The notes under the pieces are model-generated. The model was not told the DNA's origin, did no database searches, and saw nothing but the letters and a program-made list of their open reading frames with translations. The position numbers were made by a program, and so were the translations under genes. 64,000 nucleotides of DNA, from positions 1,146,583 through 1,210,582 of the forward strand of contig JAXLYU010000005.1 of assembly GCA_046351255.1 (NCBI GenBank), in the 5' to 3' direction. This DNA is from Labilithrix sp. GTDB taxonomy: Bacteria; Myxococcota_A; Polyangia; Polyangiales; Polyangiaceae. Of this stretch, positions 1,758 to 23,463 are shown piece after piece (position 1 is the stretch's first letter; each line of letters begins with the position of its first letter).

Positions 1758-1913
1758 CTTCCCACCTGCAAGAGTCGTTCGTCAATCTGGGAAAGTCGTG
1801 GAAAGTATCCGCCACCGGAGAGGTGGGACTTTTGACCTCGTCGTTCATGGCAGGCGGGTGTCAGACACGACCCGCTTAAGCCGATCGAGCGATGGACGTT
1901 CTCTCTCAACACC

Positions 1914-2258
1914 ATGGACTCGTCCGAACGCCGTCGAGATATCCGCGCTCACGCTTCCCCGCCCGTCGAGATCATCCGCATCGGTTCCCTCGAAAAAGTC
2001 GAGGCACTGAACGTCAGCTTTCGCGGCCTCTTCCTGCGCATGGATGTGCCGCCCCAGCTCAACGAGCTCCTGAAGCTTCGGGTCCAGATCCCCGGTCGAA
2101 TGATCACGCTCAACGTGGTGTCGGTCCGGGTCGTCACCGACGCCCACGGCCGGGCTGGCGTCGGCGTGAAGTTCTTCGCGCTCGCCGGCGATGAGAAGCG
2201 CCAGTGGGAGTCGTACATCACCTCCCTCGTCGCTCATCACCGAAGGCAGGCCGCGTGA
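1914..2258 (+). CDS. PilZ domain protein (c-di-GMP receptor-like)
   Basis: RRRDIRAH (RxxxR motif) and NVSFRGLFL (D/NxSxxG motif), the two PilZ signatures. 114 aa. Confidence 0.65.
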   Translation: MDSSERRRDIRAHASPPVEIIRIGSLEKVEALNVSFRGLFLRMDVPPQLNELLKLRVQIPGRMITLNVVSVRVVTDAHGRAGVGVKFFALAGDEKRQWESYITSLVAHHRRQAA

Positions 2259-2387
2259 CGGTCGACCCGCCAGGGCCATGACGATCGCCAGACGGATGAC
2301 AGGGTCACAAGGAACGACACTCACGAGATCTCGACGACTTGCACGAAAAGATGGACGGCACGGCGGCTGCTTCAGGAGGTCATCACG

Positions 2388-3676: not shown

Positions 3677-3697
3677 CGCGAGCTCCGAAAGCGAAAA

Positions 3698-3724
3698 GGA
3701 GCGACGCTCACGAAGCGTTGCTCC
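3698..3724. terminator. Bidirectional hairpin terminator between convergent genes
   Basis: GGAGCGACGCT-cacga-AGCGTTGCTCC: 11-bp stem (one G-U pair) with a 5-nt loop, in the 76-bp gap between the + gene ending at 3676 and the - gene ending at 3753. Confidence 0.45.
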
Positions 3725-3752
3725 TGATGGCATTCGAGCGAGGCCGCTTCTT

Positions 3753-4784
<1,032 letters not shown>

Positions 4785-4803
4785 GATTGGCTCGTCTGGT
4801 CGA

Positions 4804-5580
4804 TCAGCTACCGAAGCCGGCCTCGAGACCGGGATAAGGAAGAGTGAAGCGGCGGCCCGACGCCGGCGCCGGCGCGTGAGCCGGGCAATACCCGCGCTTC
4901 TTCGCGCTGGGATCGAAGCTCACGTACGAGCACGTCGTACAGATCGCGAGGTAGCTCTCGTAGTCGCCCGGGCGCAGGAGGTAGTCGACCGCGAAGAGGG
5001 AGAGGACGCGATCGGCGAGGCGCGTCGTGCCCGCGGCGGGCGCCCAGGTCGGCTCGCGATATCCGTCTTCCACCCGAGCCACCGAGCCCGCGATGAGCGC
5101 GCGGAGCACGAAGCTCGAAGACTGATCGCCGCTGAGCTGAGCCAGGTTCTCGAGCACCTCCGTACGGGCGGCCCGCAAGATGCGATCGACGAGGCGGACG
5201 TCGATCTGCTTGATGAGCGGCACATCGCCGGCGATCGACGGATGGCTCTCACGCTTGGCATAGCGCGTGGCGAGGGCATAGGGGCCCGAGAGCCACATGG
5301 CGAGCTCGGGCTTCCCCCAGGTCGGCGACTCGTTCATGAACTGGACCGCGGTCTCGCGGCAGGAGCGGGCCATGTCGGCGCCGCTGAAGCCTGGCGGAAG
5401 AACAACGACGGTATCGCGGGGACCTTCCTGCGAGGGAGGTAGGGAGTGCACTTCGCTCATGATCGGAAAGGAGCAGGCATTCGCCGTACCAACGCCCGGT
5501 GTTCGTCCGATGACGAGGAACCGTCGCTCCGCCGACGCTGAGCCGTACCCCCATGACGCCTCGACGAGCAAAAGCGGCAT
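4804..5580 (-). CDS. Hypothetical protein with C-terminal Cys/His motif (CTTCSYVSFDPSAKKRGYCPAHA). Co-transcribed immediately upstream of the sigma-54 activator.
   Basis: High GC3 and protein-like composition on the minus strand; the overlapping plus-strand ORF is an Arg-rich artefact. 19-bp gap to the downstream activator gene. Start uncertain (alternative ATG at 5460). Confidence 0.5.
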   Translation of the reverse strand: MPLLLVEASWGYGSASAERRFLVIGRTPGVGTANACSFPIMSEVHSLPPSQEGPRDTVVVLPPGFSGADMARSCRETAVQFMNESPTWGKPELAMWLSGPYALATRYAKRESHPSIAGDVPLIKQIDVRLVDRILRAARTEVLENLAQLSGDQSSSFVLRALIAGSVARVEDGYREPTWAPAAGTTRLADRVLSLFAVDYLLRPGDYESYLAICTTCSYVSFDPSAKKRGYCPAHAPAPASGRRFTLPYPGLEAGFGS

Positions 5581-5739: not shown

Positions 5740-6129
5740 ATGGGTGCAGCGCTGAAGATCACGCCGGAAGAGGACTTTCGCGTTCGCGAAGACGAACGCA
5801 AGTCGCCCCGCGCGATCGCGTACCTCTGCATCGATCTGTGCTCCGAGCACAACTTCTGGACCGGGCTCACGATGAACATCTCCGAGGGCGGCGTCTTCGT
5901 CGCCACCCACGTCATGCTCCCTGCCGGCTCGCTCGTGGGCCTGCACCTCGAGCTGCCGAGTCACAAGCGCATCATGACGCTCGGCGAGGTCCGCTGGAGC
6001 CGCACGTACTCGGGTGACGACGATGTCCCGCCGGGCCTAGGCATCAAGTTCGTCGGCCTCGACCTCGCGAGCCTCGCCGCCATCCGCAAGTTCATCACGA
6101 CGATCCGCGAGCCGCTGCTCTTCGAATAG
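5740..6129 (+). CDS. PilZ domain protein
   Basis: ATG at 5740 with GGAGGA Shine-Dalgarno 10 nt upstream. EDERKSPR (RxxxR-like) and NISEGGVFV (DxSxGG). Confidence 0.65.
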   Translation: MGAALKITPEEDFRVREDERKSPRAIAYLCIDLCSEHNFWTGLTMNISEGGVFVATHVMLPAGSLVGLHLELPSHKRIMTLGEVRWSRTYSGDDDVPPGLGIKFVGLDLASLAAIRKFITTIREPLLFE

Positions 6130-11368: not shown

Positions 11369-12622
11369 CTACTTCTTCGCTTGTGGCTCGAGCGACGGGC
11401 GCTCGTTGCCGAGGCCGAAGCCGTCGTGCAGCGCGCGCACCGCGAGCTCCGTGTACTTCTGGTGCACGAGGCAGCTCACCTTGATCTCCGACGTCGAGAT
11501 GGCCTGGATGTTGATCCCCTCGGCCGCGAGGAGCTTGAACATCTTCGCCGCGATGCCCGCGTGAGAGCGCATGCCGAGACCGACGATCGAGACCTTCACG
11601 ACGTCCTCGTCGTAGCGGACCTCGGTGGAGCCGAGCTTCTTGCCGATCTCCTCGATCCACGGACGGGCGCGCTGGAGGTCGGTCTGCGCGAGCGTGAACG
11701 TGACGTCGGCGCGGTCGCTCGCGCCGGTGGTCGCGTTCTGGATGATCATGTCGACGGAGACGTTCTTCTCCGCGAGATGCGAGAAGAGCTCCGCGACGAC
11801 GCCCGGCTTGTCGTGCAGGCCGATGACGTTCACGCGCGCCTCGTTCTTGTCGTAGGCGACGCCCGCGACGACGACGTCTTCCAGTGACTTGTCCTCCCCC
11901 GTCACCCACGTGCCCTGGGCATCGCTGAACGAGCTACGAACATGAACCGGAACGCCGTACTTCATCGCAATCTCCACGCTGCGGATCTGCAGCACCTTCG
12001 CGCCAAGTGACGCGAGCTCGAGCATCTCCTCGTAGGAGATCTTCGGAATCTTCTTCGCCGACGCGCAGATGTTGGGGTCGGTGGTGTACACGCCGTCGAC
12101 GTCGGTGAAGATCTCGCAGGCGTCGGCCTTGATGGCGGCAGCCACCGCGACGGCGGAGGTGTCCGAGCCGCCACGACCGAGCGTCGTGATGTTGCCCGCG
12201 TCGTCCGCGCCCTGGAAGCCCGCGATGACCACGATCTCGCCGCGCTTGCAGGCGTCGCGGATCTTCTCGCTGTCGATCGACTTGATGCGCGCCTTGGTGA
12301 ACGCGTCGTCGGTGAGGACCTTCACCTGGTGGCCGAGGAGCGAGCGCGCCTTGCCGCCCTCCGCCTGGATCGCCATCGAGGTGAGGGCGCAGGTGACCTG
12401 CTCGCCCGTTGCTGCGATGACGTCCATCTCGCGCTGATCCGGCACCTGGGTGACGTCGTGCGCGAGCTTGAGGAGGCGATTCGTCTCGCCGCTCATCGCG
12501 GAGACGACGACGACCACGTCGTTGCCTTCCTTCTGCGTCGCGAGCGCGCGCTTCGCCACGTTCTTGATGCGGTCGACGGTGCCGACCGACGTGCCACCGA
12601 ATTTCTGAACGATGAGAGCCAA
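11369..12622 (-). CDS. lysC: Aspartate kinase
   Basis: LIVQKFGGTSV (amino-acid kinase N-terminus), VVVVSAMSGETN, C-terminal ACT-domain repeats (VNVIGLHDKPGV..., VKVSIVGLGMRSHAG). TTG start at 12622 gives ~417 aa. Confidence 0.9.
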   Translation of the reverse strand: MALIVQKFGGTSVGTVDRIKNVAKRALATQKEGNDVVVVVSAMSGETNRLLKLAHDVTQVPDQREMDVIAATGEQVTCALTSMAIQAEGGKARSLLGHQVKVLTDDAFTKARIKSIDSEKIRDACKRGEIVVIAGFQGADDAGNITTLGRGGSDTSAVAVAAAIKADACEIFTDVDGVYTTDPNICASAKKIPKISYEEMLELASLGAKVLQIRSVEIAMKYGVPVHVRSSFSDAQGTWVTGEDKSLEDVVVAGVAYDKNEARVNVIGLHDKPGVVAELFSHLAEKNVSVDMIIQNATTGASDRADVTFTLAQTDLQRARPWIEEIGKKLGSTEVRYDEDVVKVSIVGLGMRSHAGIAAKMFKLLAAEGINIQAISTSEIKVSCLVHQKYTELAVRALHDGFGLGNERPSLEPQAKK

Positions 12623-12719
12623 GGGGCCGAGACGTCTATTCGGCCGAGCGCGATGCGTCAACACACGGGGAAGCCGCGGGGGTTGACCCCGCTCCGAAAT
12701 TCGTGGATATCGCCGCGCG

Positions 12720-13046
12720 GTGGGGCCGTACGCCGGATACATCGTGCAGACGCTGGTGACGCTGCTCGCCGTGTGCGCGCTCGCCTTCGTCGTGCTTTAC
12801 GGCGCGCGCCGCCTCGGCCTGGGCCGGCCGCGAGGCCCGATCTCCCTCGTGGGCCTGCTCCCGCTCGACGCCCGGCGCTCGATCTACCTCGTCAAGGTCG
12901 CGGGTCAGGTCATCGTCGTCGGCGCGTCCGAGGCCGGCTTCACGAAGCTCGGCGAGCTCTCCGCGGACGACGTCCCGGAGGACGTCCCCGCCGCCGCGGG
13001 CCCGTTCTCCGACGTGCTCGCGCGCGTACTGAAGACGAAGAAATGA
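12720..13046 (+). CDS. FliO-like small membrane protein
   Basis: Single TM (LVTLLAVCALAFVVLYGARRL), then SLVGLLPLDARRSIYLVKVAGQVIVVGASEAGFTKLGEL, matching the FliO pattern. Immediately upstream of fliP. Confidence 0.5.
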   Translation: MGPYAGYIVQTLVTLLAVCALAFVVLYGARRLGLGRPRGPISLVGLLPLDARRSIYLVKVAGQVIVVGASEAGFTKLGELSADDVPEDVPAAAGPFSDVLARVLKTKK

Positions 13047-13059
13047 GCGCGCGGTCCCC

Positions 13060-13728
13060 ATGACCGACTTCCTGGGAAAGCCGATCGCGCTCGTCGTCGC
13101 GCTCGCGCTGGTCTCGCTCCTTCCGTTCGTCTTCATGGGCGTCACCGCCTTCGTGAAGATCTCGACCGTCCTCCAGATCGTCCGGAGCGCGATCGGCGCG
13201 CAGTCGGTGCCCTCGAACACGGTCATCATGGCGCTCGCGACGTCGCTGACGCTCATCGCGATGGCGCCCGTCGGCCAGCGCATCTTCGATCGCGCCGCGC
13301 CGCTGGCGGCTCAGGCGGAGAAGAAGAACCAGGACACGAGCGCGCTCATCGAGCAGGGCGTCCTCGCCGTCAGCGAGCCGATGCGCGATTTTCTCGCGAA
13401 GAACTCCGCGGAGAAGGAGCAAACGCGCTTCCTCCTCGTCGCGAAGAACGCCCGGCCGGAGGCGGAGCGCGACAAGGTCGGCGCAAAGGACCTCTCCGTG
13501 CTCGTGCCCGCCTTCGTGGTGACGGAGCTGACGGAGGCCTTCGCCATCGGCTTCCTCATCTACCTGCCGTTCCTCGTCATCGATCTCGTGATCGCCAACG
13601 TGCTCCTCGCGCTCGGCATGCAAATGCTGAGTCCCACGCAGGTGAGTCTGCCCTTCAAGCTCCTCCTCTTCGTCGCCATCGACGGCTGGGGGCTCTTGGC
13701 GCAGGCCCTCGTTCAAGGCTACAGATAG
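13060..13728 (+). CDS. fliP: FliP/SctR family export-apparatus protein (flagellar or T3SS type)
   Basis: TAFVKISTVLQIVRSAIGAQSVPSNTVIMALATSLTLIAMAPV and C-terminal LPFKLLLFVAIDGW are characteristic FliP/YscR motifs. 222 aa. Confidence 0.85.
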   Translation: MTDFLGKPIALVVALALVSLLPFVFMGVTAFVKISTVLQIVRSAIGAQSVPSNTVIMALATSLTLIAMAPVGQRIFDRAAPLAAQAEKKNQDTSALIEQGVLAVSEPMRDFLAKNSAEKEQTRFLLVAKNARPEAERDKVGAKDLSVLVPAFVVTELTEAFAIGFLIYLPFLVIDLVIANVLLALGMQMLSPTQVSLPFKLLLFVAIDGWGLLAQALVQGYR

Positions 13729-13734
13729 CCCGCG

Positions 13735-13950
13735 ATGCGGGTCGTCCTCCTTCTTCTCTCCTGCGTGACGCTCGGGACCCTCGCGTGCGATCAGCTCAAC
13801 AAGCCGATGCCCGTGCCCCCGAGCGGCAGCTCCGCGTCCTCGACCGGCTCCTCGTCGACCCCCGTCGACGCCGGGCGCGACGCGGATCTCCCGGCGCTTC
13901 CGGGGGAAGGACCGCACGTCACCCCCCAGCCGGGCGACGTTCAGCTCTGA
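13735..13950 (+). CDS. Small putative lipoprotein
   Basis: MRVVLLLLSCVTLGTLACD (lipobox) followed by a low-complexity S/P-rich sequence. 71 aa. Confidence 0.3.
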   Translation: MRVVLLLLSCVTLGTLACDQLNKPMPVPPSGSSASSTGSSSTPVDAGRDADLPALPGEGPHVTPQPGDVQL

Positions 13951-14016
13951 TTCGTCGCGGCGGTGCTTGACATCGTCCGCGGCGCGAATAGAGTCCGCCG
14001 TCCCAATCAAGGAATT

Positions 14017-14089
<73 letters not shown>

Positions 14090-14434
14090 CTACTCAGAGC
14101 CGATGCCGAAAGGTGCGCCGGCGCGCGAACCGCGCCCTCTGGCTCGATGCGTGCTCGATGCGCCTTGGCTCCCCGCGACGGAGAACCCGACCAAGACGGC
14201 GCTGTCCGGTCGTGGCATCGAGCTCGTGCGTGATTGTGTAGAATACATGCAATCGGTCCGGCTCGCGCCCGCTGGCGCCAGAGAGAGGACGACCGCCGCT
14301 CGTCGGGCCACCTCACGACGCCCGGGCTGTCGCAGCCGCGCGATGGTCCGGAGCGCGTGAGAACACGCAGCGCACCGCGTCATGACAGTTTCCCGAACGC
14401 CGGTGGTCGACAAGAGGTTAATCTGAGCGTCCCA

Positions 14435-15082
14435 ATGTTCAGCCCGCGCGCCATGATTCAGGCGGCAGTAGGTTACGTGCGTAAGAACCCCGACGAGGTC
14501 GTACGCGCTGCCGTGAACGCGACGGGCCTACGCTTTGGCGTGCCGATCGCGACGCTGCGGTGGTTCGCCGGCCAGATCCAGGGCGCCAAGGCGCCGAAGG
14601 ACGTCGAGATATCGAGCGCGCCGCCGGCGCTCCGCTTCTCGGCCGTGGTCGACGCGATGGGCACGGCGGTCCGCGCCTCGGCGGCGATCAAGATCGACGA
14701 GGTGACGATCACGGAGGACTCGCTGCGGGTGGGCGTGCGCCTCCGCGAGGTGAAGCTCGCGCTCGTCGGCGACAGCGAGTCGCCGGTGGCCACGCTCATC
14801 AAGTCGGGCGCGCTCGACCTCTCGAAGCCGGGCAACCTCGTGAAGTTCATTCCAAAGCGGCCGGCCGCGGTCGTCGAGGCGGAGGGCGACCGCGTCGTCG
14901 TCGACCTCATGAAGGTCCCGAAGCTCGCCAATGACCCGCGCATCCGTCGCGCGCTCGGCATCCTGTCGCCGGTGCTCGGCATCCGGGCCATCGAGACGGA
15001 TCGCGACCATCTCTATGTGAAGCTTCGTGCCACACCGGCTGGCCTGCCCGAAGCGCTCGGCAAGCTGCGCGCGCCCGCGTAA
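14435..15082 (+). CDS. Hypothetical protein
   Basis: Protein-like composition from MFSPRAMIQAAVGYV... The upstream part of the listed ORF is Arg-rich. Confidence 0.4.
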   Translation: MFSPRAMIQAAVGYVRKNPDEVVRAAVNATGLRFGVPIATLRWFAGQIQGAKAPKDVEISSAPPALRFSAVVDAMGTAVRASAAIKIDEVTITEDSLRVGVRLREVKLALVGDSESPVATLIKSGALDLSKPGNLVKFIPKRPAAVVEAEGDRVVVDLMKVPKLANDPRIRRALGILSPVLGIRAIETDRDHLYVKLRATPAGLPEALGKLRAPA

Positions 15083-15096
15083 ACTGCGGGGCCGTC

Positions 15097-15567
15097 ATGC
15101 TCCGCGCTTCCTTGTTCGTTCTCGCGACCGCGGTGTTCGTGCCGCTGTCGGTCGTCGTGGCCTGCAACGATGTGGAGACGACGTACGCGCCAGATGCGGG
15201 CAATCGCGTCTGCGATCCCGGCCCGTTCACCTTCGGCGGTGACAACGAGAATCATGCGTCGGTCGTCGGCCTCGGCTCGAAGCCGAGCGCGCCCGCGTGC
15301 TCGTCGGACGGGACCACCTTCGACGTGATCAACAAGCTGCCGCGCGGCGGCTGGTATCTCGTTGGCTGGTCGGCGCAGATCAACGGCACGCAGGACAAGA
15401 GCGGCCAGGGCGAATGCCTGGTCATCTCGAGCTGCCGGTGCGTCGCCGGACCGGCCGACACGACGCCCGTGCCGACGCCGACCGATGCCGGCGCCGACGC
15501 CGACGCGGCGGCGGAGCCCGCGCCCGAGCCGTCGCCGTCGAGCGACGCCCACTGGGACTGCCGCTAA
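15097..15567 (+). CDS. Cys-rich secreted lipoprotein
   Basis: Signal peptide + lipobox (VVACND); 8 further Cys after the lipobox; Ala/Pro-rich C-terminus. Confidence 0.5.
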   Translation: MLRASLFVLATAVFVPLSVVVACNDVETTYAPDAGNRVCDPGPFTFGGDNENHASVVGLGSKPSAPACSSDGTTFDVINKLPRGGWYLVGWSAQINGTQDKSGQGECLVISSCRCVAGPADTTPVPTPTDAGADADAAAEPAPEPSPSSDAHWDCR

Positions 15568-15582
15568 ATTGAGCTCACGCGA

Positions 15583-16125
15583 TCACGCGAGCTCGTCGCG
15601 CGCTTCCTGATCTTCCCCGAGGGCGCAGAGCGCGCGCTCGAGGTCGATCTCGCGAACGCCCGCGTCGAGGCGCGCGCGCTCCCCCCACCATGCGGACTTG
15701 TCCGGCGGTGTTCCGAGGAGCGCTTCGTTGTAGTCCTCCGGCTCGAGCAGCAGCACGGCCTCGCGGGCCGCTTCGAGCTGGTTGTCGAGGAACTCGAGCT
15801 CTACGCCGATCTCCGTCGCGCCGGACTTCACCGCGCGGTCGAGCGTGGCGCGAGCGGAGACCGCGAAGTACACCCATTCTTCCGCGTCAGGGCGCTCATC
15901 CATGCCTTCCGCGAAGGCAGCGGCGGCGTGCTCCAGCTCGACGCGAACGCGGATGGAGCCGAGAGCGGTGAGGAGCCCGCGCGCGGTGTGAGCAATCGCG
16001 GACGGCTTTCCTTTGGCGATGGCGCGACGACAGGCCTCGAGGTCGAGCCGGTACCGTCCGAGGACGATCATCGGATCGTGGCTGATGTCGGTGAGCGTGA
16101 TCCGAGCGAGCGCGTGGAGAGTCAT
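15583..16125 (-). CDS. Hypothetical protein, translationally coupled downstream of the ECF-like sigma factor
   Basis: Start at MTLHALARI... (ATG 16125) overlaps the sigma stop by 4 nt. Confidence 0.4.
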   Translation of the reverse strand: MTLHALARITLTDISHDPMIVLGRYRLDLEACRRAIAKGKPSAIAHTARGLLTALGSIRVRVELEHAAAAFAEGMDERPDAEEWVYFAVSARATLDRAVKSGATEIGVELEFLDNQLEAAREAVLLLEPEDYNEALLGTPPDKSAWWGERARLDAGVREIDLERALCALGEDQEARDELA

Positions 16126-16931
16126 CGCGAGGCCTCGTCTCGCATCCCGCCTTCGGCGGATCCGCGGCAACCGGAGTTCAGAGTCTCGTGGTTCTCGTTG
16201 AGCGGAGGGGGAGGAGTCGTGCGAGGTGCCATCACGCGTGCCCGGACCCAGTCTCGCGCCCGTTGCAGCAGCTTGTCGACGCGGGCGCGCGCGCGCCGGC
16301 GTCGGGCGATGGCATCTTCCATCGCGGTGGTCTCTCGCGCGCGAACGCTGGTGTCGTCGACATAGGGTCTCCCGCTGGGGACAGCGAGCGACTCGCGCTC
16401 GACCTCACGGTCGACGAGCAGGTCAATCGGAGTCCCTTCGAGATATACGGCCACGAGCACCTCGCGATAACGGGGGGGCGCGGTGTGAAGCACGTGCACC
16501 ACCTGATCGATGAGCGCCTTCTCCCCGCGCTCCTCCTCCGCGCGTTCGAGGGCCGAGTGCGGATCGAGCCCGGAAGAGGCGAAGAAGTCCTCCTCGTAGC
16601 ACTCGGTCTTCTCGTAAACGCCGGAGGCCTCGCGGTGGTAATCACGCGCGCGGTTCTTCGCCGCGACGGCCAGATAACCGTCCTCGAATCCCGGCTCGAC
16701 GGATCCGGCGACGATGCGGTCGAGGACCGACAACGTCACGGACTGAGCAAGGTCCTCACGCGACTGCGGAGGAATCCCATTTTGCGAGAGGACGCGCACT
16801 GCCTCGGAGCGGAGAATCCCGGCGAGCTCGTCGCGCGCGCACCGATAGTGGTGTTCGCTCTCGAGCCCGGCCGCCCGCATCGCACGCGCCCCCATCGCCG
16901 CGCGTCCAACGACACGCGCCGCGCTATTCAT
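16122..16931 (-). CDS. ECF-like sigma-70 family sigma factor (divergent)
   Basis: GGGAGG Shine-Dalgarno 4 nt upstream of the ATG at 16931. Region 2-like EDLAQSVTLSVLDRI...GYLAVAAKNRARDYHR. Region 4-like LHTAPPRYREVLVAVYLEGTPIDLL. Confidence 0.55.
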   Translation of the reverse strand: MNSAARVVGRAAMGARAMRAAGLESEHHYRCARDELAGILRSEAVRVLSQNGIPPQSREDLAQSVTLSVLDRIVAGSVEPGFEDGYLAVAAKNRARDYHREASGVYEKTECYEEDFFASSGLDPHSALERAEEERGEKALIDQVVHVLHTAPPRYREVLVAVYLEGTPIDLLVDREVERESLAVPSGRPYVDDTSVRARETTAMEDAIARRRRARARVDKLLQRARDWVRARVMAPRTTPPPPLNENHETLNSGCRGSAEGGMRDEASR

Positions 16932-17218
16932 GGAACCTCCCGCTGCAATGAAGGATAGCCACGCAGGGGAATGGACGGAGGATCCTCCAGGTCCTGACAG
17001 ACCCATCGCCATTTAGGGAGGACGCCGCCCCACGCTGTCTCCATCTCCCGAGCTTACGATCCCCACCGGCCTCCTCGATTCTCCGAGATTCGAGGGCCTG
17101 GCACTCCCCACGGCCCACCTACCGCCGTTCTGGTGTGGGGCCCCGCCACCGTTCGCCCCACCTGCGAGCCCCTCCGATTTCCGAAGCCGAGCTGAGCGCA
17201 GTCGTCAGGCGTGACTCG

Positions 17219-18898
17219 TCACGGCGTGCAGGGCTGGCAGCCCGGAGCGCCTTCGACCATGCACGGGAGGCCGTTCACCTTGATCGCCTGAGCGGCCGAC
17301 GGCTTGTCCTTGCAGTACGTCGAGGCCACGCAGTGCGCGGGGCAGCTCATCGCTTCGCCGCCGCTGCCCGGCTCCGTCGTGACCGGCGGCGCCGTCGTCG
17401 ACTCGAGATGGCCTTCGAGCTTGCCGCAGAGCGCCGCGTGCTGCGTCTGGAAGCGCGTCGGGTAGCCCTCGCGGTGATGCACGTCGTTCAGCTTCGCCTC
17501 CGGATACGGGATCGGGATCCAGCGGCCCTTCGCGTCCATCTCCGTGAAGAAGTTCTTGTCGAACTTGAAGCGCTCCGCGCGGCGCTCGTACTTGACGACG
17601 AGCCCGTCGGGGTTCGCGATCGTGCCCTTGATGTCCGAGAACTCCGGATCTGCGGAGAGGTGCTCGTAGAGCTTCATCGCGAGGAGCTCGTCGATGGTGG
17701 CGCTGCCGTCGAAATACGAGTTCCAGTACGAGCCGTCGATGTAGCCGACTTCCATTACCTTGCGGGTGGCGTCCTCGTTCGCATAACCCTCGTGGTTGTA
17801 CGAATACCGAATATCGACGTCGCGGACCTCGAGGCCGAAGAGCGAGAGCATGTCGCGGTAGTGGAACGTCTTGCCGCCGGCCACCGTCTTCGGCGTCCGG
17901 CCGATCGCGTCCTTGACCGCGGGTGTCCACCTCGCGGGCGTGCTCCCGGAGCGACACTCGAGCAGCTCGTGGAGGAAGAGCGCGCCGAATTTATCGAAGT
18001 TCGGGTGGCTCTCGATCTTCTCCGCTGCCGACTGCGCCATGAGGCGATTCATGAGCACGCCGAAGCGGAGCGACGGACGGAACGCGAACGAGCGCGAGAC
18101 GTTCTCGATCTGCTCGCTCGTGTCCTGGCGATATGGATAGCTCGGATAGACGTCGATCCCGCGGAGGCGCGCCTTCACGTTCGCCGCGTCGTAGAGCGGG
18201 GCATAACGCGGGAGGTGCTTCGTCGACACCTCGGTGCGGAACTGCTTGTAGTCGGAGCTCTCGCGGGCCTCGACCGGCTTCGACGTATCCGTCAGCTCGT
18301 CGTTGTCGCTGCCGTAGAACGACGGCCAGTCCGGGTACATCGCGAAGATGGGTCGGTCGTTCTTGCCGTGGCACTTCGAGCATTTGCGGCCCGGCTCCGG
18401 CATGTCCGCCTCGGTCTGCCACCTTGGCGCGTGCGCGTCGTCGAACTGGAGGGCCGACAGGTGGAAGCTCTTCGTCGCGGCGTCGAACTCGAGCACGTCG
18501 AGGCGGTTCGGCTCCGTCTGACCGGACGCGCCGCCGTTGTAGCTGATCGAGAAGCCGCTCCGCTCGTCCCACAGCACCGCGCGCGGCGCGGTCGGCGAGG
18601 ATGACTGCGAGACGACCTGCTCGATGAGGTGACCGTTCTCACCCTTGTAGAGACGACCGTGCTTCAGCGTGAAGTTGATCCGGAAGTCGCCGGGCAACGC
18701 CGCCGGGAGCTGATCGAGGGAGACGAGCGGCGCGGCCATCTGCGCGAGCCGGTCCCTCGACATCGGTGGTGAGCTCGGATCGATCAGCGCTCCGTCGTCC
18801 TGGGCCACGTCCTCGCCGTCCGTGGTGACAGCGCAGGCTGCGCCGAGGAGGCCGATACCGAAGGCCGCGAGGACAGAACGAAGACGCATGGCCTGCAT
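17219..18898 (-). CDS. Secreted lipoprotein with a single CxxCH haem-binding motif (putative c-type haem protein)
   Basis: Signal peptide with LGAAC lipobox; RKCSKCHGKND (CxxCH). 559 aa. Confidence 0.6.
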   Translation of the reverse strand: MQAMRLRSVLAAFGIGLLGAACAVTTDGEDVAQDDGALIDPSSPPMSRDRLAQMAAPLVSLDQLPAALPGDFRINFTLKHGRLYKGENGHLIEQVVSQSSSPTAPRAVLWDERSGFSISYNGGASGQTEPNRLDVLEFDAATKSFHLSALQFDDAHAPRWQTEADMPEPGRKCSKCHGKNDRPIFAMYPDWPSFYGSDNDELTDTSKPVEARESSDYKQFRTEVSTKHLPRYAPLYDAANVKARLRGIDVYPSYPYRQDTSEQIENVSRSFAFRPSLRFGVLMNRLMAQSAAEKIESHPNFDKFGALFLHELLECRSGSTPARWTPAVKDAIGRTPKTVAGGKTFHYRDMLSLFGLEVRDVDIRYSYNHEGYANEDATRKVMEVGYIDGSYWNSYFDGSATIDELLAMKLYEHLSADPEFSDIKGTIANPDGLVVKYERRAERFKFDKNFFTEMDAKGRWIPIPYPEAKLNDVHHREGYPTRFQTQHAALCGKLEGHLESTTAPPVTTEPGSGGEAMSCPAHCVASTYCKDKPSAAQAIKVNGLPCMVEGAPGCQPCTP

Positions 18899-19044
18899 TC
18901 AGCATCATGTATGCCACTGTAGGTGGGTCGGGGTGATGGGATCGATCGTGCGAAATCGCGGCTGAAAACCGCTGATTCCGTCCTTGCCGGAACCGCCCCT
19001 GGTGTCCCGATCGTGCGACGCTGATCCACGATCGACGCCCAGCT

Positions 19045-20019
19045 TCATCGGCTCGCCCGTCCGTCGTGGCCGACGGCGGCGACGAGGCCGTAGACGCCAT
19101 ACTCGATCAGGTACGGCAGCGCGTGGTCGGGGTAGGCCTCCTTCGCGAGCGCGGTGATGGCCTTGCCATTGGCACCGGCGGCGCCGTGCTCCGCGACGTA
19201 CCGTGTGACGATCTCGTTCATACGCGCGAGATACGCCTTCTGCTCGGTCACCGCCGCGTCGACCGTGGTCTGCGTGCCGCGGCCGCCGTACACCGTCGCG
19301 CCCTCGTACGCGCGGAGCTCGTCGAGCGCGAGCGCCCACGAGGCGAGATCCGGGGCCGGCTTGCCGTCGACGATGCCGCCCTCGAGCCAAGCGTGCGCGC
19401 CGTGATGCACGAGATCCCCCACGACGAGGGCGTCGAGCTGCGGAACGAACGCGACCGTCTGCGTGGATGATACGCCGGCGTGCTGGAGCTCGTGCAGGCG
19501 CACCTTCGTCGCGCCCTCGAGCGGCAGGTCGAGGTCACCCCGGAAGGTGACGTCGATCCGTGCCTGCGCGGGGTAGGTCGCCTCGGTGAAGGCGTGCGCG
19601 ACGTTCACGAAGTAGCCCTTCTTGTACGCATGCACGCCTGGGATCGCGCGCGCGGTGCTCTCGCTCGCGACGACCCTCGCGCCGATCTTCTGGAACGCGC
19701 TCGCGCCGTTGAACTTGTCGGGGTTCGGATGGGTGACGACCACCCAGCGGATGGGGCTCGCCGTCTTCGCGCGAATCTCGGCGATGAGCTGGCTCGCGTA
19801 GCCCTCCGTGAACTGGGCGTCGAACACGACGACCTCGCGGCCCGTGTCGAGCCAGAACGAATGCGTGTCGAAGCCCGTTGCGTCCGACGTGAAGGTCTCG
19901 AGCCCGCGCGCGCGGTCGGGGGTGACCATCGAGGACGACGCGGAGCCCGGGCCCGGATCACGCGCATCGGCGCAGGCCACGAGGAGGAGGGCGGAGAGAG
20001 CGGCAGTGAGGATTCGCAT
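19045..20019 (-). CDS. Metallo-beta-lactamase-fold lipoprotein
   Basis: LLLVACAD lipobox. WVVVTHPNPDKFNG (MBL HxHxD-type motif variant) and downstream His residues (HELQHAG, HHGAHAW). Confidence 0.65.
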   Translation of the reverse strand: MRILTAALSALLLVACADARDPGPGSASSSMVTPDRARGLETFTSDATGFDTHSFWLDTGREVVVFDAQFTEGYASQLIAEIRAKTASPIRWVVVTHPNPDKFNGASAFQKIGARVVASESTARAIPGVHAYKKGYFVNVAHAFTEATYPAQARIDVTFRGDLDLPLEGATKVRLHELQHAGVSSTQTVAFVPQLDALVVGDLVHHGAHAWLEGGIVDGKPAPDLASWALALDELRAYEGATVYGGRGTQTTVDAAVTEQKAYLARMNEIVTRYVAEHGAAGANGKAITALAKEAYPDHALPYLIEYGVYGLVAAVGHDGRASR

Positions 20020-20088
20020 GCCGTGAACCTAGCCTCGACGCCCTTGTCCGCCTCGCCGGCTTTGGACAAACTATAAGGCGAAACGGAC

Positions 20089-20859
20089 ATGGCCCATCTC
20101 GACCCCGATCGGGCTCCGCGCGCCGCCTTCGTGCTCGCGGAGTCGTACGAGCCGACCGCTGGCAGCTGGCACACGCATCGGCGCGCGCAGCTCGTCCATG
20201 CGGCGGCGGGCGTCCTGACGGTCGCGACGGAGGCCGGCCGCTGGATCGCCCCACCGCAGCGCGCGATCTGGGTGCCGGGAGGGATGAAGCATCGCGTGGC
20301 GTCGGCGCGGCCCTTCCGCCTCCTCACGCTCTATGTCGATCCGCACGTGCTGCGCCGAACGACCTGCGCCGTCGTGGCCGTCGACCGACTCGTCGCGGAG
20401 CTGCTCGAGACGGCGGGCACGTTCGGTCCCGGCTACCCGAAGACCGGGCCCGAGGCGCGGCTCGTCCAGGTCCTCCTCGATCGCCTGCCGGCGCTCGCGA
20501 TCGCTCCTCTCCTTCATCTCCCGCGACCCACGAGCCCCGAGCTCGTTCGCATCGCGAAGGCGATCGCTCAGGAGCCTGCAGACCGGCGCACCCTGGAAGA
20601 GTGGGCCGCGCTGGTTGGGCTCGGCCCCAAGACGGCGGCTCGCCGGTTCCAGGCCGAGACCGGCCTCACCTTCGGGCGCTGGCGCCAGCAGTGCCGGCTC
20701 CTGGCGGCGATCGAGCACCTCGCGGCCGGTAGCAGCGTCACCCGGACCGCGTTCGAGGTCGGCTACGACGATGTCTCCTCGTTCATCGCGACGTTCAAGG
20801 CATCCATGGGGACGACGCCCGCCCGTTACTTCGGCCCTGACCGCCGATCCATGGGGTGA
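20089..20859 (+). CDS. AraC-family transcriptional regulator (cupin N-domain + AraC HTH)
   Basis: N-terminus WHTHRRAQLVHAAAGVL...WIAPPQRAIWVPGGMKH (cupin). C-terminus WAALVGLGPKTAARRFQAETGLTFGRWRQQCRL...AFEVGYDDVSSFIATFK (AraC HTH). Confidence 0.85.
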   Translation: MAHLDPDRAPRAAFVLAESYEPTAGSWHTHRRAQLVHAAAGVLTVATEAGRWIAPPQRAIWVPGGMKHRVASARPFRLLTLYVDPHVLRRTTCAVVAVDRLVAELLETAGTFGPGYPKTGPEARLVQVLLDRLPALAIAPLLHLPRPTSPELVRIAKAIAQEPADRRTLEEWAALVGLGPKTAARRFQAETGLTFGRWRQQCRLLAAIEHLAAGSSVTRTAFEVGYDDVSSFIATFKASMGTTPARYFGPDRRSMG

Positions 20860-21007
20860 AACGCGCACCAGGTAGGATGCCGCCGTACCCCACCCTCTTG
20901 GGCACAACTCTGCGCAAGTGGTCGAAATCACTCGTTCACCCCCACTGGAAACTTGTGGTCCGGGGTGTGCTGAAGGGAGAGACACAACGTCAACGGAGGA
21001 TTCGCCA

Positions 21008-22087
21008 ATGTTCAGCCGCATCTCGAAGGTTCTCGTTCTCGCTCTCTCCCTCACCGCCTCCACCGTCGCGGTGGGCTGCGCGGGCAACGCGGAAGAGAAC
21101 GTCGGCTCGGACGAGGGCGCGGCGACCTCCAGTACGCTCTCGCACGACTACGAAGGCACGATCGGCAACAACAAGGTCTTCGTCCGCATCGACCGCGTCG
21201 GCGCCGCCATCACCGGCAGCTACTTCTACGACAAGCCCGGCACGAGCGACGACGTCCTCGTCCTCAAGGGTTCGCTCGCGGGCACGAAGCTCACGATGAC
21301 GGAGTCGGTCAACGCGGCGGGCGCGGACACGGGCGCGTTCAACGGCAACGTCTCGGGCGACAGCATCACGGGCACGTGGAAGGCTGGCAACACGACGCTC
21401 CCGCTCAAGCTCACCGCCATCAAGTCGCTCAAGACGGTTCAGCACAAGTACGTCGCGAACATCAAGGCGGTGAAGGTGCCGGGCCAGGAGTGGCAGCCGC
21501 GTGACTGCTCGCTCGAGGCGGACGGTGTCGAGATCTTCGGTCTCGATCCGGCGGCCGAGAAGGCGATGATGGACGCTCTCAAGATCGAGCGCCTCGACCG
21601 TGACCAGGAAGGTCACTGCGAGAGCGATATCCGTTACGTCAGCCAGTCGGTCGAGCTGAACGACAAGGGCTTCCTCACGATTCACGTCGCGACCGAGTAC
21701 GACGGCGGCGCGCACCCGGAGAACGCGTCCGAGTATTACAACTTCCAGGTCGCCACCGGTCAGAACATCGGCCCGAACGAGATCTTCCAGGCCGGCTCCG
21801 AGGCGAAGGTGAAGGAGCTCATGATCCAGGCGATGCAGAAGCAGCAGACGCCGGACTTCACCGCGGAAGACATCAAGGCGCAGATCGAGGAGTTCGAGCA
21901 GCACTTCGGCGCCGATACGAAGCTCGAGAACATCCAGATGGGCGTCCTGGCGGATGGCCTCCACATCGACATGGGCAACAACTACCCGCACGTCATCCTC
22001 GCTCTCGCGCCGGCGGTCACCATCCCGTGGTCCGACGTGAAGCCGCTCATGACCTCCTGGAGCGCGGCTCAGGTCATGGCGAAGTGA
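21008..22087 (+). CDS. Lipoprotein, DUF3298/DUF4163 (RsiV-like) domain
   Basis: GGAGGA Shine-Dalgarno 8 nt upstream. Lipobox VAVGCAG. EYDGGAHPENASEYYNFQVATGQ resembles the Y-GGAHG core of DUF3298. Confidence 0.5.
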   Translation: MFSRISKVLVLALSLTASTVAVGCAGNAEENVGSDEGAATSSTLSHDYEGTIGNNKVFVRIDRVGAAITGSYFYDKPGTSDDVLVLKGSLAGTKLTMTESVNAAGADTGAFNGNVSGDSITGTWKAGNTTLPLKLTAIKSLKTVQHKYVANIKAVKVPGQEWQPRDCSLEADGVEIFGLDPAAEKAMMDALKIERLDRDQEGHCESDIRYVSQSVELNDKGFLTIHVATEYDGGAHPENASEYYNFQVATGQNIGPNEIFQAGSEAKVKELMIQAMQKQQTPDFTAEDIKAQIEEFEQHFGADTKLENIQMGVLADGLHIDMGNNYPHVILALAPAVTIPWSDVKPLMTSWSAAQVMAK

Positions 22088-22125
22088 GCTGATCGCCCTG
22101 GCGTCATCGCCAATCGACGAACACG

Positions 22126-23463
22126 CTAGGCCGCGGTCTCCGGTGACGGAGACGCGGCCTTCGTGGCTTTCGAGGCGAAGAGGCCGATGACGATCGCCAC
22201 CACCGAGAAGAGAGCGAGCAGGGCGAGGAGCCCGAACGCCACGTCGTACGAGAAGCCGAACGCGCGCTGCGGAAATACCTGGGAGAGCGCCCACTCGATC
22301 ACGCCGTTCCAGACGAGCGCGGCGGCCCCGGTGCCGAAGACGCACCCGAGAATGCGACCGGCGCGCGACGGTCGCTTCGCCCAGACACGCCCGAGCGTCA
22401 CCGAGGCCGTGATCGTCGCCAGCGCCATCACGGCGATGAGAATGAGCCAGTAACCCTTCGTCTGCTCCATTCCGAAGAGGAGGCCGCGCCGCGACATGAC
22501 CTCCATGGAGAGCTCGCCCGGGGGCAGACCCGGGAGATTCGCGCGATAGGAGGTGCCGTTCGACTCCGGAGTGAAGGGGACCGACGACGAACGCAGCTTC
22601 GTATCGGGAGGGAGCTGAAGATCGACGTGCAGCTCGCCGAATCGAGCCCACCGCCGGGCCGGCGAAAGCAGATATTCGTAATGGAAGACGGTATTCACCG
22701 CCCGCCCCGAGTCGCTGCCGGCGATATGCGTATAGCGAACGACGACGGCTCGTGAGGCGCCGGCCGGGATCGCCAGCGGAAACGTCAGCCAGGAGAGCGG
22801 CGCGTGGTAGGAGCGCGTGGTCCACCCTCGCTGCAGCTTCGGGATCTCCTCGGGGATCGCCTCCGCGGCGGCGCGCAGCACGTCGTTCCGCGTCGGCGCC
22901 GGGCGGGACGCATACCAGCGAAGGAGATCGGAGCAGTCGCCGTCGCAGCCTTTCGCGAAGCGGCGCAGCCTCTCCGTATCTCGATATCCAGGATGACGGT
23001 CGAGCGCGTCGAGGGCCTCGAGCTCGTGCGCCGCCTCCGGGTTCGCTCCGAGCCAGCGCTCGAGGAGCGGCCCCAGCACGTCGGCCTCCGTCACGAGCCG
23101 GCCGGTGACAGGCGCGCCGTCGATCGTGACCTTGGCCTCGACCTCGGGCCGGCCGTGCTCGGCCGAGACCATCACGAAGGCGACGTCGGCCTGAGTATCG
23201 GCGTGTCCGCCGTTCGTCATGCGGTAGGTGGCGGTGACCTCGGCGGACGCGAGCGTCGGTGCGACCACGAACGAGAGGTCCTCGGAGTCGACACGGACCT
23301 CGGTATCGTTCTGCGGAACGAGCGAGCCGTGGGACGCGCCTTCGCTCCACCACTTCGCCATGTTCGCGCGCGCGTCGTGCGTGGCCAGCAGACCGGCGCC
23401 GAGCAGCGGCGCGACGCGGAGCCAGTGACGCGAGCGCGGCCGATTCATCACGGGGAGCATCAC
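22126..23463 (-). CDS. Membrane protein, unknown function (N-terminal signal peptide, large extracytoplasmic domain, four C-terminal TM helices)
   Basis: Hydrophobic helices YWLILIAVMALATITASV..., ILGCVFGTGAAALVW..., FGLLALLALFSVVAIVIGLF. Confidence 0.5.
   Translation of the reverse strand: MMLPVMNRPRSRHWLRVAPLLGAGLLATHDARANMAKWWSEGASHGSLVPQNDTEVRVDSEDLSFVVAPTLASAEVTATYRMTNGGHADTQADVAFVMVSAEHGRPEVEAKVTIDGAPVTGRLVTEADVLGPLLERWLGANPEAAHELEALDALDRHPGYRDTERLRRFAKGCDGDCSDLLRWYASRPAPTRNDVLRAAAEAIPEEIPKLQRGWTTRSYHAPLSWLTFPLAIPAGASRAVVVRYTHIAGSDSGRAVNTVFHYEYLLSPARRWARFGELHVDLQLPPDTKLRSSSVPFTPESNGTSYRANLPGLPPGELSMEVMSRRGLLFGMEQTKGYWLILIAVMALATITASVTLGRVWAKRPSRAGRILGCVFGTGAAALVWNGVIEWALSQVFPQRAFGFSYDVAFGLLALLALFSVVAIVIGLFASKATKAASPSPETAA

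What the first reader, a model, noticed from the sequence alone, without database searches (positions are those of the whole stretch)
12720..13950. Orphan FliO-FliP export-gate pair without other flagellar or T3SS core genes
FliP/SctR (clear motifs) and a FliO-like gene sit between lysC and tRNA-Ala. No fliQ, fliR, flhB or flhA follows. The next ORF is a small lipoprotein. With the MYXO-CTERM proteins pointing to a myxobacterium (non-flagellated), and a FliA-like sigma factor 10 kb upstream, this looks like a flagellar/T3SS remnant or a repurposed minimal export gate.
Basis: partly seen in the sequence, partly recalled or inferred. Interest (0 to 1): 0.55.

Follow-up and report, generated by a model that had tools for sequence, protein, structure and literature searches.

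The report
Isolated FliO–SctR secretion-gate gene pair
Two intact, strongly conserved genes for one part of a type III protein-export gate sit alone beside housekeeping genes in a Labilithrix-like myxobacterium, and are most likely one piece of a secretion machine whose genes are scattered round the genome, not a decaying relic.

Summary
Window 12720-13046 encodes a FliO-family protein and 13060-13728 a full-length FliP-family protein. No other type III secretion or flagellar gene lies in the 64 kb window or 8 kb beyond its left end.

The interpretation needs correcting. The FliP-family protein is the non-flagellar type, SctR, by curated model scores and by a tree. It is not a remnant. The same lysC / fliO-sctR / tRNA-Ala arrangement recurs in about 70 Polyangiaceae/Labilithrix genomes, including the complete Labilithrix luteola chromosome. 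SctR evolves as slowly as LysC (62-89% identity, dN/dS 0.07-0.25), and a sigma-70-like promoter is conserved upstream.

FliO next to SctR is already known from Myxococcus T3SS* clusters. The closest full clusters found here, in Thermoanaerobaculia, have the order FliO-SctR-S-T-U-V.

Equally isolated, highly conserved sctV and sctU genes exist in Myxococcota-type metagenome genomes. A published gene table lists SctR, SctS/T, SctU and SctV at distant positions within single Polyangiales bins.

Best reading (about 0.55): one piece of a dispersed, needle-less T3SS-like export gate. I could not show the partner genes in this window's own genome, so a stand-alone role remains possible.

The parts
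12683..12711 (+). Sigma-70-like promoter candidate for fliO-sctR: TTGACC (12683-12688), 17-nt spacer, GATATC (12706-12711). It ends 8 nt before the GTG start, so the mRNA may be nearly leaderless.
   Evidence: Sequence read. TTGAC is invariant, and a (C)GATNNT box lies about 17 nt downstream, in all 15 aligned upstream regions of Labilithrix-clade loci, although the rest of the spacer does not align. A strict regular expression finds the motif in 24 of 68 loci against 2 of 68 random control stretches. The tool's generic consensus scan did not report it. Function is inferred, not shown.
12720..13046 (+). fliO-like gene (108 aa): one N-terminal transmembrane helix followed by a FliO domain. Predicted assembly factor for SctR.
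   Evidence: Pfam FliO 1.9e-11, 44.3 bits, above the cut-off of 22. NCBIfam FliO equivalog 44.6 bits, below its cut-off of 55.25. Single hydrophobic segment at residues 3-34. Found directly upstream of sctR in 70 of 80 related loci. dN/dS 0.16-0.31. A FliO-domain gene holds the same position in Thermoanaerobaculia T3SS clusters and in both M. xanthus T3SS clusters.
13060..13728 (+). sctR (222 aa): FliP-family core subunit of the type III export gate, non-flagellar type.
   Evidence: PF00813 2e-61 over the full profile. NF009438 EscR/YscR/HrcR 248 bits (cut-off 179) and TIGR01102 SctR 219.3 (cut-off 208.6), while TIGR01103 FliP scores 184.8, below its cut-off of 217.45. End-to-end alignment to solved SpaP 6PEM, 8e-39. 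Tree placement with SpaP/Spa24. dN/dS 0.07-0.25.
13735..13950 (+). Small ORF (71 aa) with a signal peptide/lipobox-like N-terminus and a low-complexity tail. Whether it belongs to the unit is doubtful.
   Evidence: ORF. No family match. tblastn finds it only in the window's own strain set and L007. More distant relatives have different or no ORFs here.
13967..14090 (+). tRNA-Ala(cgc) (14017-14090) with its own promoter-like site (13967-13994). This is the downstream boundary of the unit.
   Evidence: ARAGORN. TTGACA-16-TAGAGT promoter-like site. The tRNA follows sctR in most of the 10 relatives examined.
11369..12622 (-). lysC (aspartate kinase, 417 aa), transcribed divergently. This is the upstream boundary; the intergenic spacer is 97 bp.
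   Evidence: AA_kinase plus ACT domains. lysC lies next to fliO-sctR in nearly all Polyangiaceae loci.

Best explanation
[quoted passage not shown] It sits at a fixed chromosomal place in Labilithrix/Polyangiaceae, divergent from lysC and followed by tRNA-Ala. It is under purifying selection, and a sigma-70-like promoter candidate is conserved upstream in the Labilithrix subclade. Inferred from what is established for FliO/FliP and SctRST: the single-pass membrane protein FliO helps SctR assemble into the pentameric core. That core, with one SctT and four SctS, forms the helical export gate in the inner membrane. SctU and a SctV ring join it and drive proton-motive-force-dependent protein export. 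Inferred from related genomes: in this lineage the other gate genes are not next to sctR but lie at separate, equally isolated loci. The pair would then be one piece of a genomically dispersed, needle-less T3SS*-like export apparatus rather than a relic. What it exports is unknown. By analogy with M. xanthus T3SS*, it may serve contact-dependent prey lysis together with a Tad/Kil system.
For: Identity and type. Integrity and selection: SctR is uninterrupted in 73 of 80 loci; dN/dS is 0.07-0.25 against lysC 0.12-0.39; 9 of 9 strain-level differences are synonymous; SctR identity of 62-89% tracks LysC identity of 66-90%; more than 120 protein clusters share 82-99% identity. Fixed locus: about 74 myxobacterial loci, including the L. 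luteola DSM 27648 chromosome, carry FliO+SctR beside lysC, with no SctS/T/U/V within 10 kb on either side. Promoter. FliO belongs to this T3SS type: Thermoanaerobaculia clusters have the order FliO-SctR-S-T-U-V, and M. xanthus has MXAN_2446/2447 and MXAN_5648/5647. Dispersed partners exist: a large family of sctV genes labelled Myxococcota, 71-90% identical to each other, stands alone among housekeeping genes, and isolated full-length sctU genes keep the NPTH motif. Same-genome evidence from the literature: Table S5 of PMC11821767 lists SctR, SctS/SctT, SctU and SctV at distant gene numbers within single Polyangiales bins. These include g__JAAFHV01, whose representative genome is my locus L071, and g__SCUS01, where FliO_06410 and SctR_06411 are adjacent. 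PMC11509652 reports the SctV and SctR KEGG orthologues among the genes common to more than 90% of the Myxococcota genomes it compared; L. luteola appears in that paper's genome table, though I did not check that it was in the subset used for that analysis.
Against: I never showed SctS/T/U/V in the window's own genome or in L. luteola. None of the roughly 240 SctV homologues listed carried a Labilithrix label or lay on a contig that also holds an SctR locus. The published table used permissive BLAST thresholds; its SctN/L/D hits are probably ATP-synthase or FHA paralogues. Its 'SctU 14 genes from SctR' in g__Ga0077539 has no counterpart in this window. No ATPase, C-ring or basal-body gene was linked to the pair. 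The central Met of the gate's Met gasket is Gln here (GMQMLSP), so the gate chemistry differs from solved systems.
Confidence: 0.55

Rival explanations
1. Stand-alone module. FliO and SctR work without SctS/T/U/V, for example as a FliO-scaffolded SctR ring that serves as a membrane channel or assembly platform with a new, non-T3SS role.
For: No partner gene within 10 kb on either side in about 74 genomes. The pair has its own promoter in a housekeeping neighbourhood. Conservation is unusually strong for a secretion gene. The gasket residue is altered. No Labilithrix-labelled SctV was seen. From my own knowledge: FliP alone can form ring oligomers in vitro with FliO's help (Fukumura et al. 2017).
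Against: All SctS/SctT-facing hallmark motifs of SctR are retained. Published tables list SctS/T/U/V homologues in bins of the same families. Equally isolated, equally conserved sctV and sctU genes exist in the phylum, which is what a dispersed complete gate predicts.
Confidence: 0.22
2. Extra paralogue. The genome has a complete clustered T3SS with its own sctR elsewhere, and this pair is a second copy that feeds or regulates it.
For: In PMC11821767 Table S5 several f__Ga0077539 bins (E1_bin123, E1_bin389, F1_Cluster.31_sub, H1_Bin.162_sub) show a contiguous Q-R-S-T-U(-V) cluster plus a further isolated SctR.
Against: Bins of g__Ga0077539, g__JAAFHV01 and g__SCUS01 show only dispersed genes and no cluster. 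In the bins that do have a cluster, additional isolated SctS/T, SctU and SctV hits accompany the extra SctR, which suggests a second, dispersed set rather than a lone spare. The genome scan found only one SctR locus in L. luteola, although its patterns were strict.
Confidence: 0.15
3. Decaying remnant of a lost T3SS or flagellum (pseudogene in the making).
For: Isolation from all other T3SS genes. Myxobacteria lack flagella (my own knowledge).
Against: Intact ORFs in 73 of 80 genomes. dN/dS 0.07-0.25, and all 9 strain-level substitutions synonymous. 62-89% identity across a family-level clade, matching LysC. Conserved promoter. Full-length match to solved SpaP. Non-flagellar type.
Confidence: 0.03

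Closest known systems
Myxococcus xanthus needle-less T3SS* (MXAN_2434-2464) and T3SS(2) (MXAN_5643-5654)
   Same: Non-flagellar SctR preceded by a FliO-family gene (MXAN_2446/2447 and MXAN_5648/5647). Myxococcota host. No needle or secretin genes nearby.
   Different: In M. xanthus, SctR lies within one cluster with SctS/T/U/V, N, L, Q, J, D and LcrH chaperones. Here it stands alone with FliO beside lysC. No M. xanthus sequence was available, so orthology to either cluster was not tested.
Thermoanaerobaculia / Acidobacteriota T3SS clusters (loci L080-L084, L107, L108)
   Same: Closest clustered relatives found (42-49% identity). A FliO-domain gene lies directly before sctR. The Met gasket is also altered (GMHMLSP).
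   Different: These are full clusters: SctJ, SctN, an FHA-FliN fusion, FliO, SctR, S, T, U, V. A sister relationship to the isolated family is not resolved (16 of 100 bootstraps).
Salmonella SpaP / Shigella Spa24 (SctR in solved export gates, PDB 6PEM, 6R6B)
   Same: Same length, no signal peptide, and end-to-end alignment with all hallmark motifs. Same clade in the tree.
   Different: About 35-40% identity by eye in the printed alignment (not computed). The gasket is MMMM there and MQML here. From my own knowledge, injectisomes of enteric pathogens have no FliO.
Flagellar FliO-FliP (assembly factor plus gate subunit)
   Same: Gene order fliO then fliP, and a single-pass FliO.
   Different: TIGR01103 FliP score is below its cut-off. 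No cleavable N-terminal extension. No flagellar genes in the window.
Scattered T3SS loci of Chlamydiales
   Same: Precedent for a functional non-flagellar T3SS whose core genes lie at several loci (PMC3459982).
   Different: Chlamydial loci still hold several core genes each. Here the pieces appear to be single genes or pairs. The lineage is unrelated.
'CORE' export apparatus proposed as a nanotube platform (FliO/P/Q/R, FlhB/A)
   Same: That paper notes that Myxococci retain CORE genes without the rest of a flagellum or injectisome, and mentions isolated orphan CORE components (PMC6456723).
   Different: A functional proposal from Bacillus subtilis, with no evidence here for nanotubes.

Membership tests
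FliP/SctR family (Pfam PF00813) | Full-length profile match above the gathering score | tested here: met
   207.7 bits against 26.9; profile positions 2-191 of 191.
FliP/SctR family (Pfam PF00813) | Hallmark motifs of solved gate subunits (VRxALG..Q.PSN; PAF..SEL..AF.IGF; LPF..IDL; LALGMxMxSP; PFK..LFV..DGW) | tested here: met
   Residue-by-residue alignment to SpaP, Spa24 and FliP. One variation: the gasket is GMQMLSP instead of GMMM(M/L)SP.
Non-flagellar SctR (NCBIfam TIGR01102 / NF009438) | Score above the curated cut-off of the SctR models | tested here: met
   TIGR01102 219.3 against 208.6; NF009438 248 against 179. The L. luteola orthologue scores 220.9. More distant members L075 and L079 pass only NF009438.
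Non-flagellar SctR (NCBIfam TIGR01102 / NF009438) | Phylogenetic grouping with injectisome SctR rather than FliP | tested here: met
   NJ tree of 60 sequences and 217 columns. The clade holding the isolated family and SpaP excludes FliP-type sequences in 99 of 100 bootstraps. Labels of 9 of the tree's sequences were checked with NCBIfam. Only three solved reference sequences and no M. xanthus sequence were available.
Flagellar FliP (NCBIfam TIGR01103) | Score above the curated equivalog cut-off | tested here: not met
   184.8 against 217.45. Genuine FliP sequences from flagellar loci score 284-294.
FliO (Pfam PF04347 / NCBIfam TIGR03500) | Domain match | tested here: inconclusive
   The Pfam model passes (44.3 against 22). 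The NCBIfam flagellar equivalog does not (44.6 against 55.25). This fits a FliO-family protein that is not the flagellar orthologue.
FliO (Pfam PF04347 / NCBIfam TIGR03500) | Single N-terminal transmembrane helix, and a gene placed immediately upstream of the FliP-family gene | tested here: met
   Hydrophobic segment at residues 3-34. 13-nt gap to sctR in the window, a 4-nt overlap in L007 and L008, and adjacency in 70 of 80 loci.
Complete non-flagellar T3SS / injectisome | Co-located core genes sctS, T, U, V, N, J, Q (and the secretin sctC) | tested here: not met
   None in the 64 kb window or 8 kb to its left. None within 10 kb on either side in about 74 related genomes. The one ATPase hit (L088) is F1 alpha.
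Myxococcus-type needle-less T3SS* | FliO-SctR adjacency in a non-flagellar system of Myxococcota | tested here: met
Myxococcus-type needle-less T3SS* | Presence in the same genome of SctS/T/U/V, N, L, Q, J, D | not testable with these tools
There is only indirect support from published tables and from isolated sctV/sctU loci in other Myxococcota-type genomes.
Bacterial flagellum | Rod, hook, motor and filament genes | tested here: not met
   None in the window. The che genes at 25.8-32.6 kb are chemosensory only.

The most novel reading that the evidence does not exclude
Polyangia, and perhaps Myxococcota generally, keep a housekeeping-like type III export gate. Its genes (fliO-sctR, sctS-sctT, sctU, sctV) are each parked at their own conserved locus among core genes, driven by ordinary promoters, and conserved as tightly as central metabolism. 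There would be no dedicated ATPase, C-ring, needle or secretin. This would be a minimal export gate driven by the proton-motive force, of the kind postulated as the ancestor of flagella and injectisomes, with unknown substrates. A more extreme version is that FliO-SctR alone forms an autonomous membrane ring.
Probability: 0.25. Interest if true: 0.75.

Novelty: new variant of a known kind. Interest (0 to 1): 0.42.

Why it matters
Type III secretion genes are almost always clustered. Myxobacterial systems are held to be the earliest branch of the non-flagellar T3SS (PMC3459982), and in Myxococcus they take part in killing prey. Suppose a whole family of abundant soil and activated-sludge predators keeps the gate subunits as single, highly conserved genes scattered among housekeeping genes. 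Cluster-based detection tools would then score these genomes as lacking T3SS and under-count the system. It would also offer a natural test of what the bare export gate can do without needle, secretin and perhaps ATPase. L. luteola is cultured and has a complete genome, so the question can be tested directly.

Tried and rejected
1. Profile hits of 'SctS' in many myxobacterial loci were artefacts. One seed ORF (L082) ran in another frame across sctR. I ignored them.
2. The ATPase hit in L088 is ATP synthase alpha, not SctN.
3. 'SctU 14 genes from SctR' in g__Ga0077539 bins. I found nothing like SctU within about 14 genes on either side of the window's sctR: no profile hit, no NPTH motif, and nothing 8 kb beyond the left end. 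This is unexplained.
4. Same-contig proof of SctR plus SctV. I compared the contig lengths and accession prefixes of about 240 SctV homologues with those of the SctR loci and spent four look-ups (and earlier). No match.
5. The SctV search with the P0238/P0195 profile returned no Labilithrix-labelled protein. The 719-aa SctV group lies in an sctU-TPR-TPR-sctV partial cluster, not alone.
6. Metagenome loci with S-T-U but no R (L119, L171) are alphaproteobacterial-type flagellar operons (flgB/C, fliE, fliQ/R, flhB), not partners.
7. I looked by eye for a FliA-type or sigma-54-type promoter upstream of fliO in the sequence. Only the sigma-70-like element is there.
8. A single-sequence AlphaFold model of the conserved neighbour p215 gave pLDDT 42, which is unusable. 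No fold search was run.
9. The 71-aa 'lipoprotein' as a conserved partner: it is not conserved beyond the nearest relatives.
Full report
**What is there.** The window is 68% G+C. On the plus strand, 12720-13046 encodes a 108-aa protein and 13060-13728 a 222-aa protein, with a 13-nt gap between them.

- The first protein matches Pfam FliO (44.3 bits, cut-off 22). It falls below the flagellar FliO equivalog of NCBIfam (44.6 against 55.25). It has one N-terminal hydrophobic helix.
- The second protein matches Pfam FliP over the whole profile (2e-61).
- Upstream lies lysC on the opposite strand (11369-12622), with a 97-bp spacer. Downstream lie a 71-aa ORF with a lipoprotein-like N-terminus and tRNA-Ala(cgc) at 14017-14090, which has its own promoter-like site.

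**Is the pair really alone?** Yes, at the locus level. I scanned about 45 window genes against Pfam or NCBIfam and used precomputed Pfam calls for the neighbours. I searched the window with tblastn and with profiles built from SctS, T, U, V, N, J and Q of complete clusters. I also looked for the SctU NPTH motif. Nothing was found in 64 kb, nor in 8 kb beyond the left end. The rest of the window holds regulators, a che cluster and unrelated enzymes.

**Flagellar or not?** Not flagellar.

- The protein passes the curated SctR models (TIGR01102 219.3 against 208.6; NF009438 248 against 179) and fails the FliP equivalog (184.8 against 217.45).
- It aligns end to end with solved SpaP (6PEM, 8e-39) and Spa24. 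It has the same length and no N-terminal signal extension, and it keeps every hallmark motif.
- In a neighbour-joining tree of 60 FliP-family sequences, the family containing the window is monophyletic in 100 of 100 bootstraps. The clade joining it to SpaP/Spa24 and to other non-flagellar clusters excludes FliP-type sequences in 99 of 100. I checked the labels of 9 of the tree's sequences with NCBIfam.
- The immediate sister group is unresolved.
- One peculiarity: the Met gasket reads GMQM(L/M)SP in this family and GMHMLSP in the Acidobacteriota clusters, against GMMM(M/L)SP in solved structures.

**Remnant or functional?** Functional, by every sequence test available.

- More than 120 protein clusters share 82-99% identity with the window's SctR. 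The named ones are Labilithrix sp..
- A scan of one genome per species returned 80 loci. About 74 are from Polyangiaceae/Labilithrix/Myxococcales genomes, including the complete L. luteola DSM 27648 chromosome, at 50-87% identity.
- SctR is uninterrupted and near full-length in 73 of 80 loci. A FliO gene lies directly upstream in 70. In L007 and L008 the two genes overlap by 4 nt.
- The divergent lysC / fliO-sctR arrangement holds in nearly all myxobacterial loci. tRNA-Ala(cgc) follows sctR in most of the 10 relatives examined.
- SctR identity to the window (62-89%) tracks LysC identity (66-90%) locus by locus.
- Pairwise dN/dS is 0.07-0.25 for SctR, 0.16-0.31 for FliO, 0.12-0.39 for lysC and 0.4-0.65 for a neighbouring DsbA-like gene. 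Between strains of the window's own species, all 9 differences in sctR are synonymous.
- Upstream of fliO, in a spacer that otherwise does not align, TTGAC(C/G) followed 17 nt later by GATNNT is conserved in all 15 aligned loci. A strict pattern finds it in 24 of 68 loci, against 2 of 68 random controls. In the window it lies at 12683-12711, 8 nt before the GTG start.
- This looks like an ordinary sigma-70-type promoter. It does not point to the weakly FliA/WhiG-like sigma factor at 2388-3050 (118 bits, cut-off 189.6).

**Where does the FliO-SctR pairing come from?**

- The closest complete clusters that the scan found are in Thermoanaerobaculia/Acidobacteriota (42-49% identity). They read SctJ ... 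SctN ... FHA-FliN fusion - FliO - SctR - SctS - SctT - SctU - SctV.
- Both M. xanthus non-flagellar systems also carry a FliO gene beside SctR (MXAN_2446/2447 and MXAN_5648/5647). This appears in Table S5 of PMC11821767 and is stated in PMC12403147.
- FliO plus SctR is therefore a known feature of this early-branching, needle-less T3SS type (PMC3459982; PMC10433427).

**Are the partners elsewhere?** This is the crux, and I could only approach it indirectly.

(a) A search with SctV from a Thermoanaerobaculia cluster returned about 52 relatives of its own type. It then returned a large family of 714-723-aa SctV proteins labelled Myxococcota or Deltaproteobacteria.
- Every context I fetched for this family shows sctV alone among housekeeping genes: PP2C-sctV-rpsI/rplM, frr-pyrH-lexA-sctV-ABC transporter, and nuo...sctV.
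- Members are 71-90% identical across genomes of 50-66% G+C.

(b) A metagenome scan with an SctS+T+U alignment found isolated, full-length sctU genes with an intact NPTH motif. L186 (72% G+C) lies beside a PriA-like gene. L164 lies beside rpsB, pyrH and frr.

(c) Table S5 of PMC11821767 lists M. xanthus T3SS homologues per gene for 46 activated-sludge Myxococcota bins. In several Polyangiales bins, SctR, SctS/SctT (often adjacent), SctU and SctV carry gene numbers hundreds to thousands apart.
- These bins include g__Ga0077539 (67% G+C, 9 Mb).
- They include g__JAAFHV01, the genus of my locus L071.
- They include g__SCUS01, where FliO_06410 and SctR_06411 are adjacent.

(d) PMC11509652 reports the SctV and SctR KEGG orthologues among the genes common to more than 90% of the Myxococcota genomes it compared. 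L. luteola appears in that paper's genome table, though I did not check that it was in the subset used for that analysis.

Together these make a dispersed export gate the most economical reading.

**Caveats.**
- I did not find SctS/T/U/V in the window's genome or in L. luteola.
- No SctV hit carried a Labilithrix label or shared a contig with an SctR locus.
- The published table used loose BLAST thresholds, so its SctN/L/D hits are likely paralogues.
- Its 'SctU 14 genes from SctR' is not reproduced in this window.

**Mechanism proposed.** Steps 3 to 5 are inferred.
1. Shown: the two genes are a conserved unit.
2. Shown: a promoter candidate is conserved upstream of it in the Labilithrix subclade; that it functions as the unit's promoter is inferred.
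3. By homology: FliO, a single-pass membrane protein, assists SctR oligomerisation.
4. By homology: SctR5-SctT1-SctS4 forms the gate, and SctU and SctV9 attach to it.
5. By analogy with M. xanthus T3SS*: export is driven by the proton-motive force and may serve prey lysis. Labilithrix is reported to carry the Tad/Kil-like genes that work with T3SS* in Myxococcus (PMC10196010).

**Rivals.**
- A stand-alone FliO-SctR module (about 0.22).
- An extra paralogue beside a complete cluster (about 0.15). Some f__Ga0077539 bins show a cluster plus an extra isolated SctR.
- A decaying remnant (about 0.03).

**Verdict.** 'Flagellar remnant' is rejected. What remains is an isolated but functional FliO-SctR unit of the myxobacterial non-flagellar T3SS type, probably one piece of a genomically dispersed gate. 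The gene families and the FliO-SctR pairing are known. The fixed, isolated, housekeeping-like placement across a whole family, mirrored by isolated sctV and sctU genes, is a variant I did not find described in the papers I read. Interest is moderate (0.42). It would rise if the dispersed minimal gate were confirmed.

Noticed in passing
window 14438-15082 (+): A 214-aa protein with no Pfam or NCBIfam match lies just after tRNA-Ala. In the Labilithrix subclade it is more conserved than SctR (73-94% identity, dN/dS 0.07-0.22). It is absent within 10 kb in more distant Polyangiaceae.
   Followed up: partly
window 14090-25611; L007, L008, L012, L016, L025, L036: The stretch between tRNA-Ala(cgc) and tRNA-Pro(tgg) is 11.5 kb in the window but about 1-5.6 kb in relatives, and its content varies. 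L008 has an integrase and phage-like genes just past tRNA-Pro. It looks like a variable island between two tRNA genes.
   Followed up: partly
window 570-4919: A conserved regulatory cluster: EAL response regulator, PilZ protein (1914-2258), a sigma factor best matching FliA/WhiG but below cut-off (2388-3050), a response regulator, and a sigma-54 activator. A further PilZ gene lies at about 5740-6129. At least the sigma factor, sigma-54 activator and second PilZ gene are syntenic in L007, and the whole cluster recurs in L091.
   Followed up: partly
L095-L106, L187 (loci fetched via SctV homologues): A large family of sctV (FHIPEP) genes standing alone among housekeeping genes in Myxococcota-labelled genomes of 50-66% G+C. 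Members are 71-90% identical to each other, with lineage-specific stable contexts (PP2C-sctV; frr-pyrH-lexA-sctV-ABC transporter).
   Followed up: partly
L186 2581-3633; L164 3088-4233: Isolated full-length sctU genes (Bac_export_2, NPTH intact) beside a PriA-like gene (by N-terminal sequence) in one locus, and beside rpsB, pyrH and frr in the other, in metagenome contigs of 72% and 54% G+C.
   Followed up: partly
window 13645-13665 region of sctR; L011-L090: The Met 'gasket' loop of the export gate reads GMQM(L/M)SP in the isolated family and GMHMLSP in the Thermoanaerobaculia clusters, instead of GMMM(M/L)SP in solved SpaP and FliP.
   Followed up: partly
L079 9611-10672; L049; L086: Possible FliO-SctR fusion ORFs (about 350 aa) in some distant members. 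L086 may instead be frameshifted, because its match is split.
   Followed up: no
L090 (Acidobacteriota, 597 kb contig): A partial T3SS locus: SctJ, an FHA-FliN-type protein, FliO and SctR are present, but sctS/T/U/V do not follow. The next gene is a 1414-aa protein on the other strand. This is another case of a broken-up cluster outside Myxococcota.
   Followed up: no
L080 8069-9640 and homologues in L081-L084: The gene before fliO in the Thermoanaerobaculia clusters fuses an FHA/YscD-cytoplasmic-type domain to a FliN C-terminal (SctQ-like) domain.
   Followed up: no
window 43803-47456 (+): A 1217-aa protein combines Toprim plus type IA topoisomerase domains with DEAD/Helicase_C and a RecQ zinc-binding domain. 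It is a topoisomerase-RecQ-like helicase fusion.
   Followed up: no
window 23460-25463 (-) and 51677-53185 (+): Two DUF2330 proteins. The first ends in a Cys-rich hydrophobic tail resembling a MYXO-CTERM sorting signal.
   Followed up: no
window 25827-32595: A chemosensory cluster (CheA, a protoglobin-PAS methyl-accepting protein, CheR, CheB) in a non-flagellated lineage. It starts right after tRNA-Pro.
   Followed up: no
L188 1230-8160 (JACKEN010000004.1): A 719-aa SctV group lies in a partial cluster, sctU - two TPR (LcrH-like) proteins - sctV, without sctR/S/T immediately upstream. It resembles the U-to-V part of M. xanthus T3SS*.
   Followed up: no
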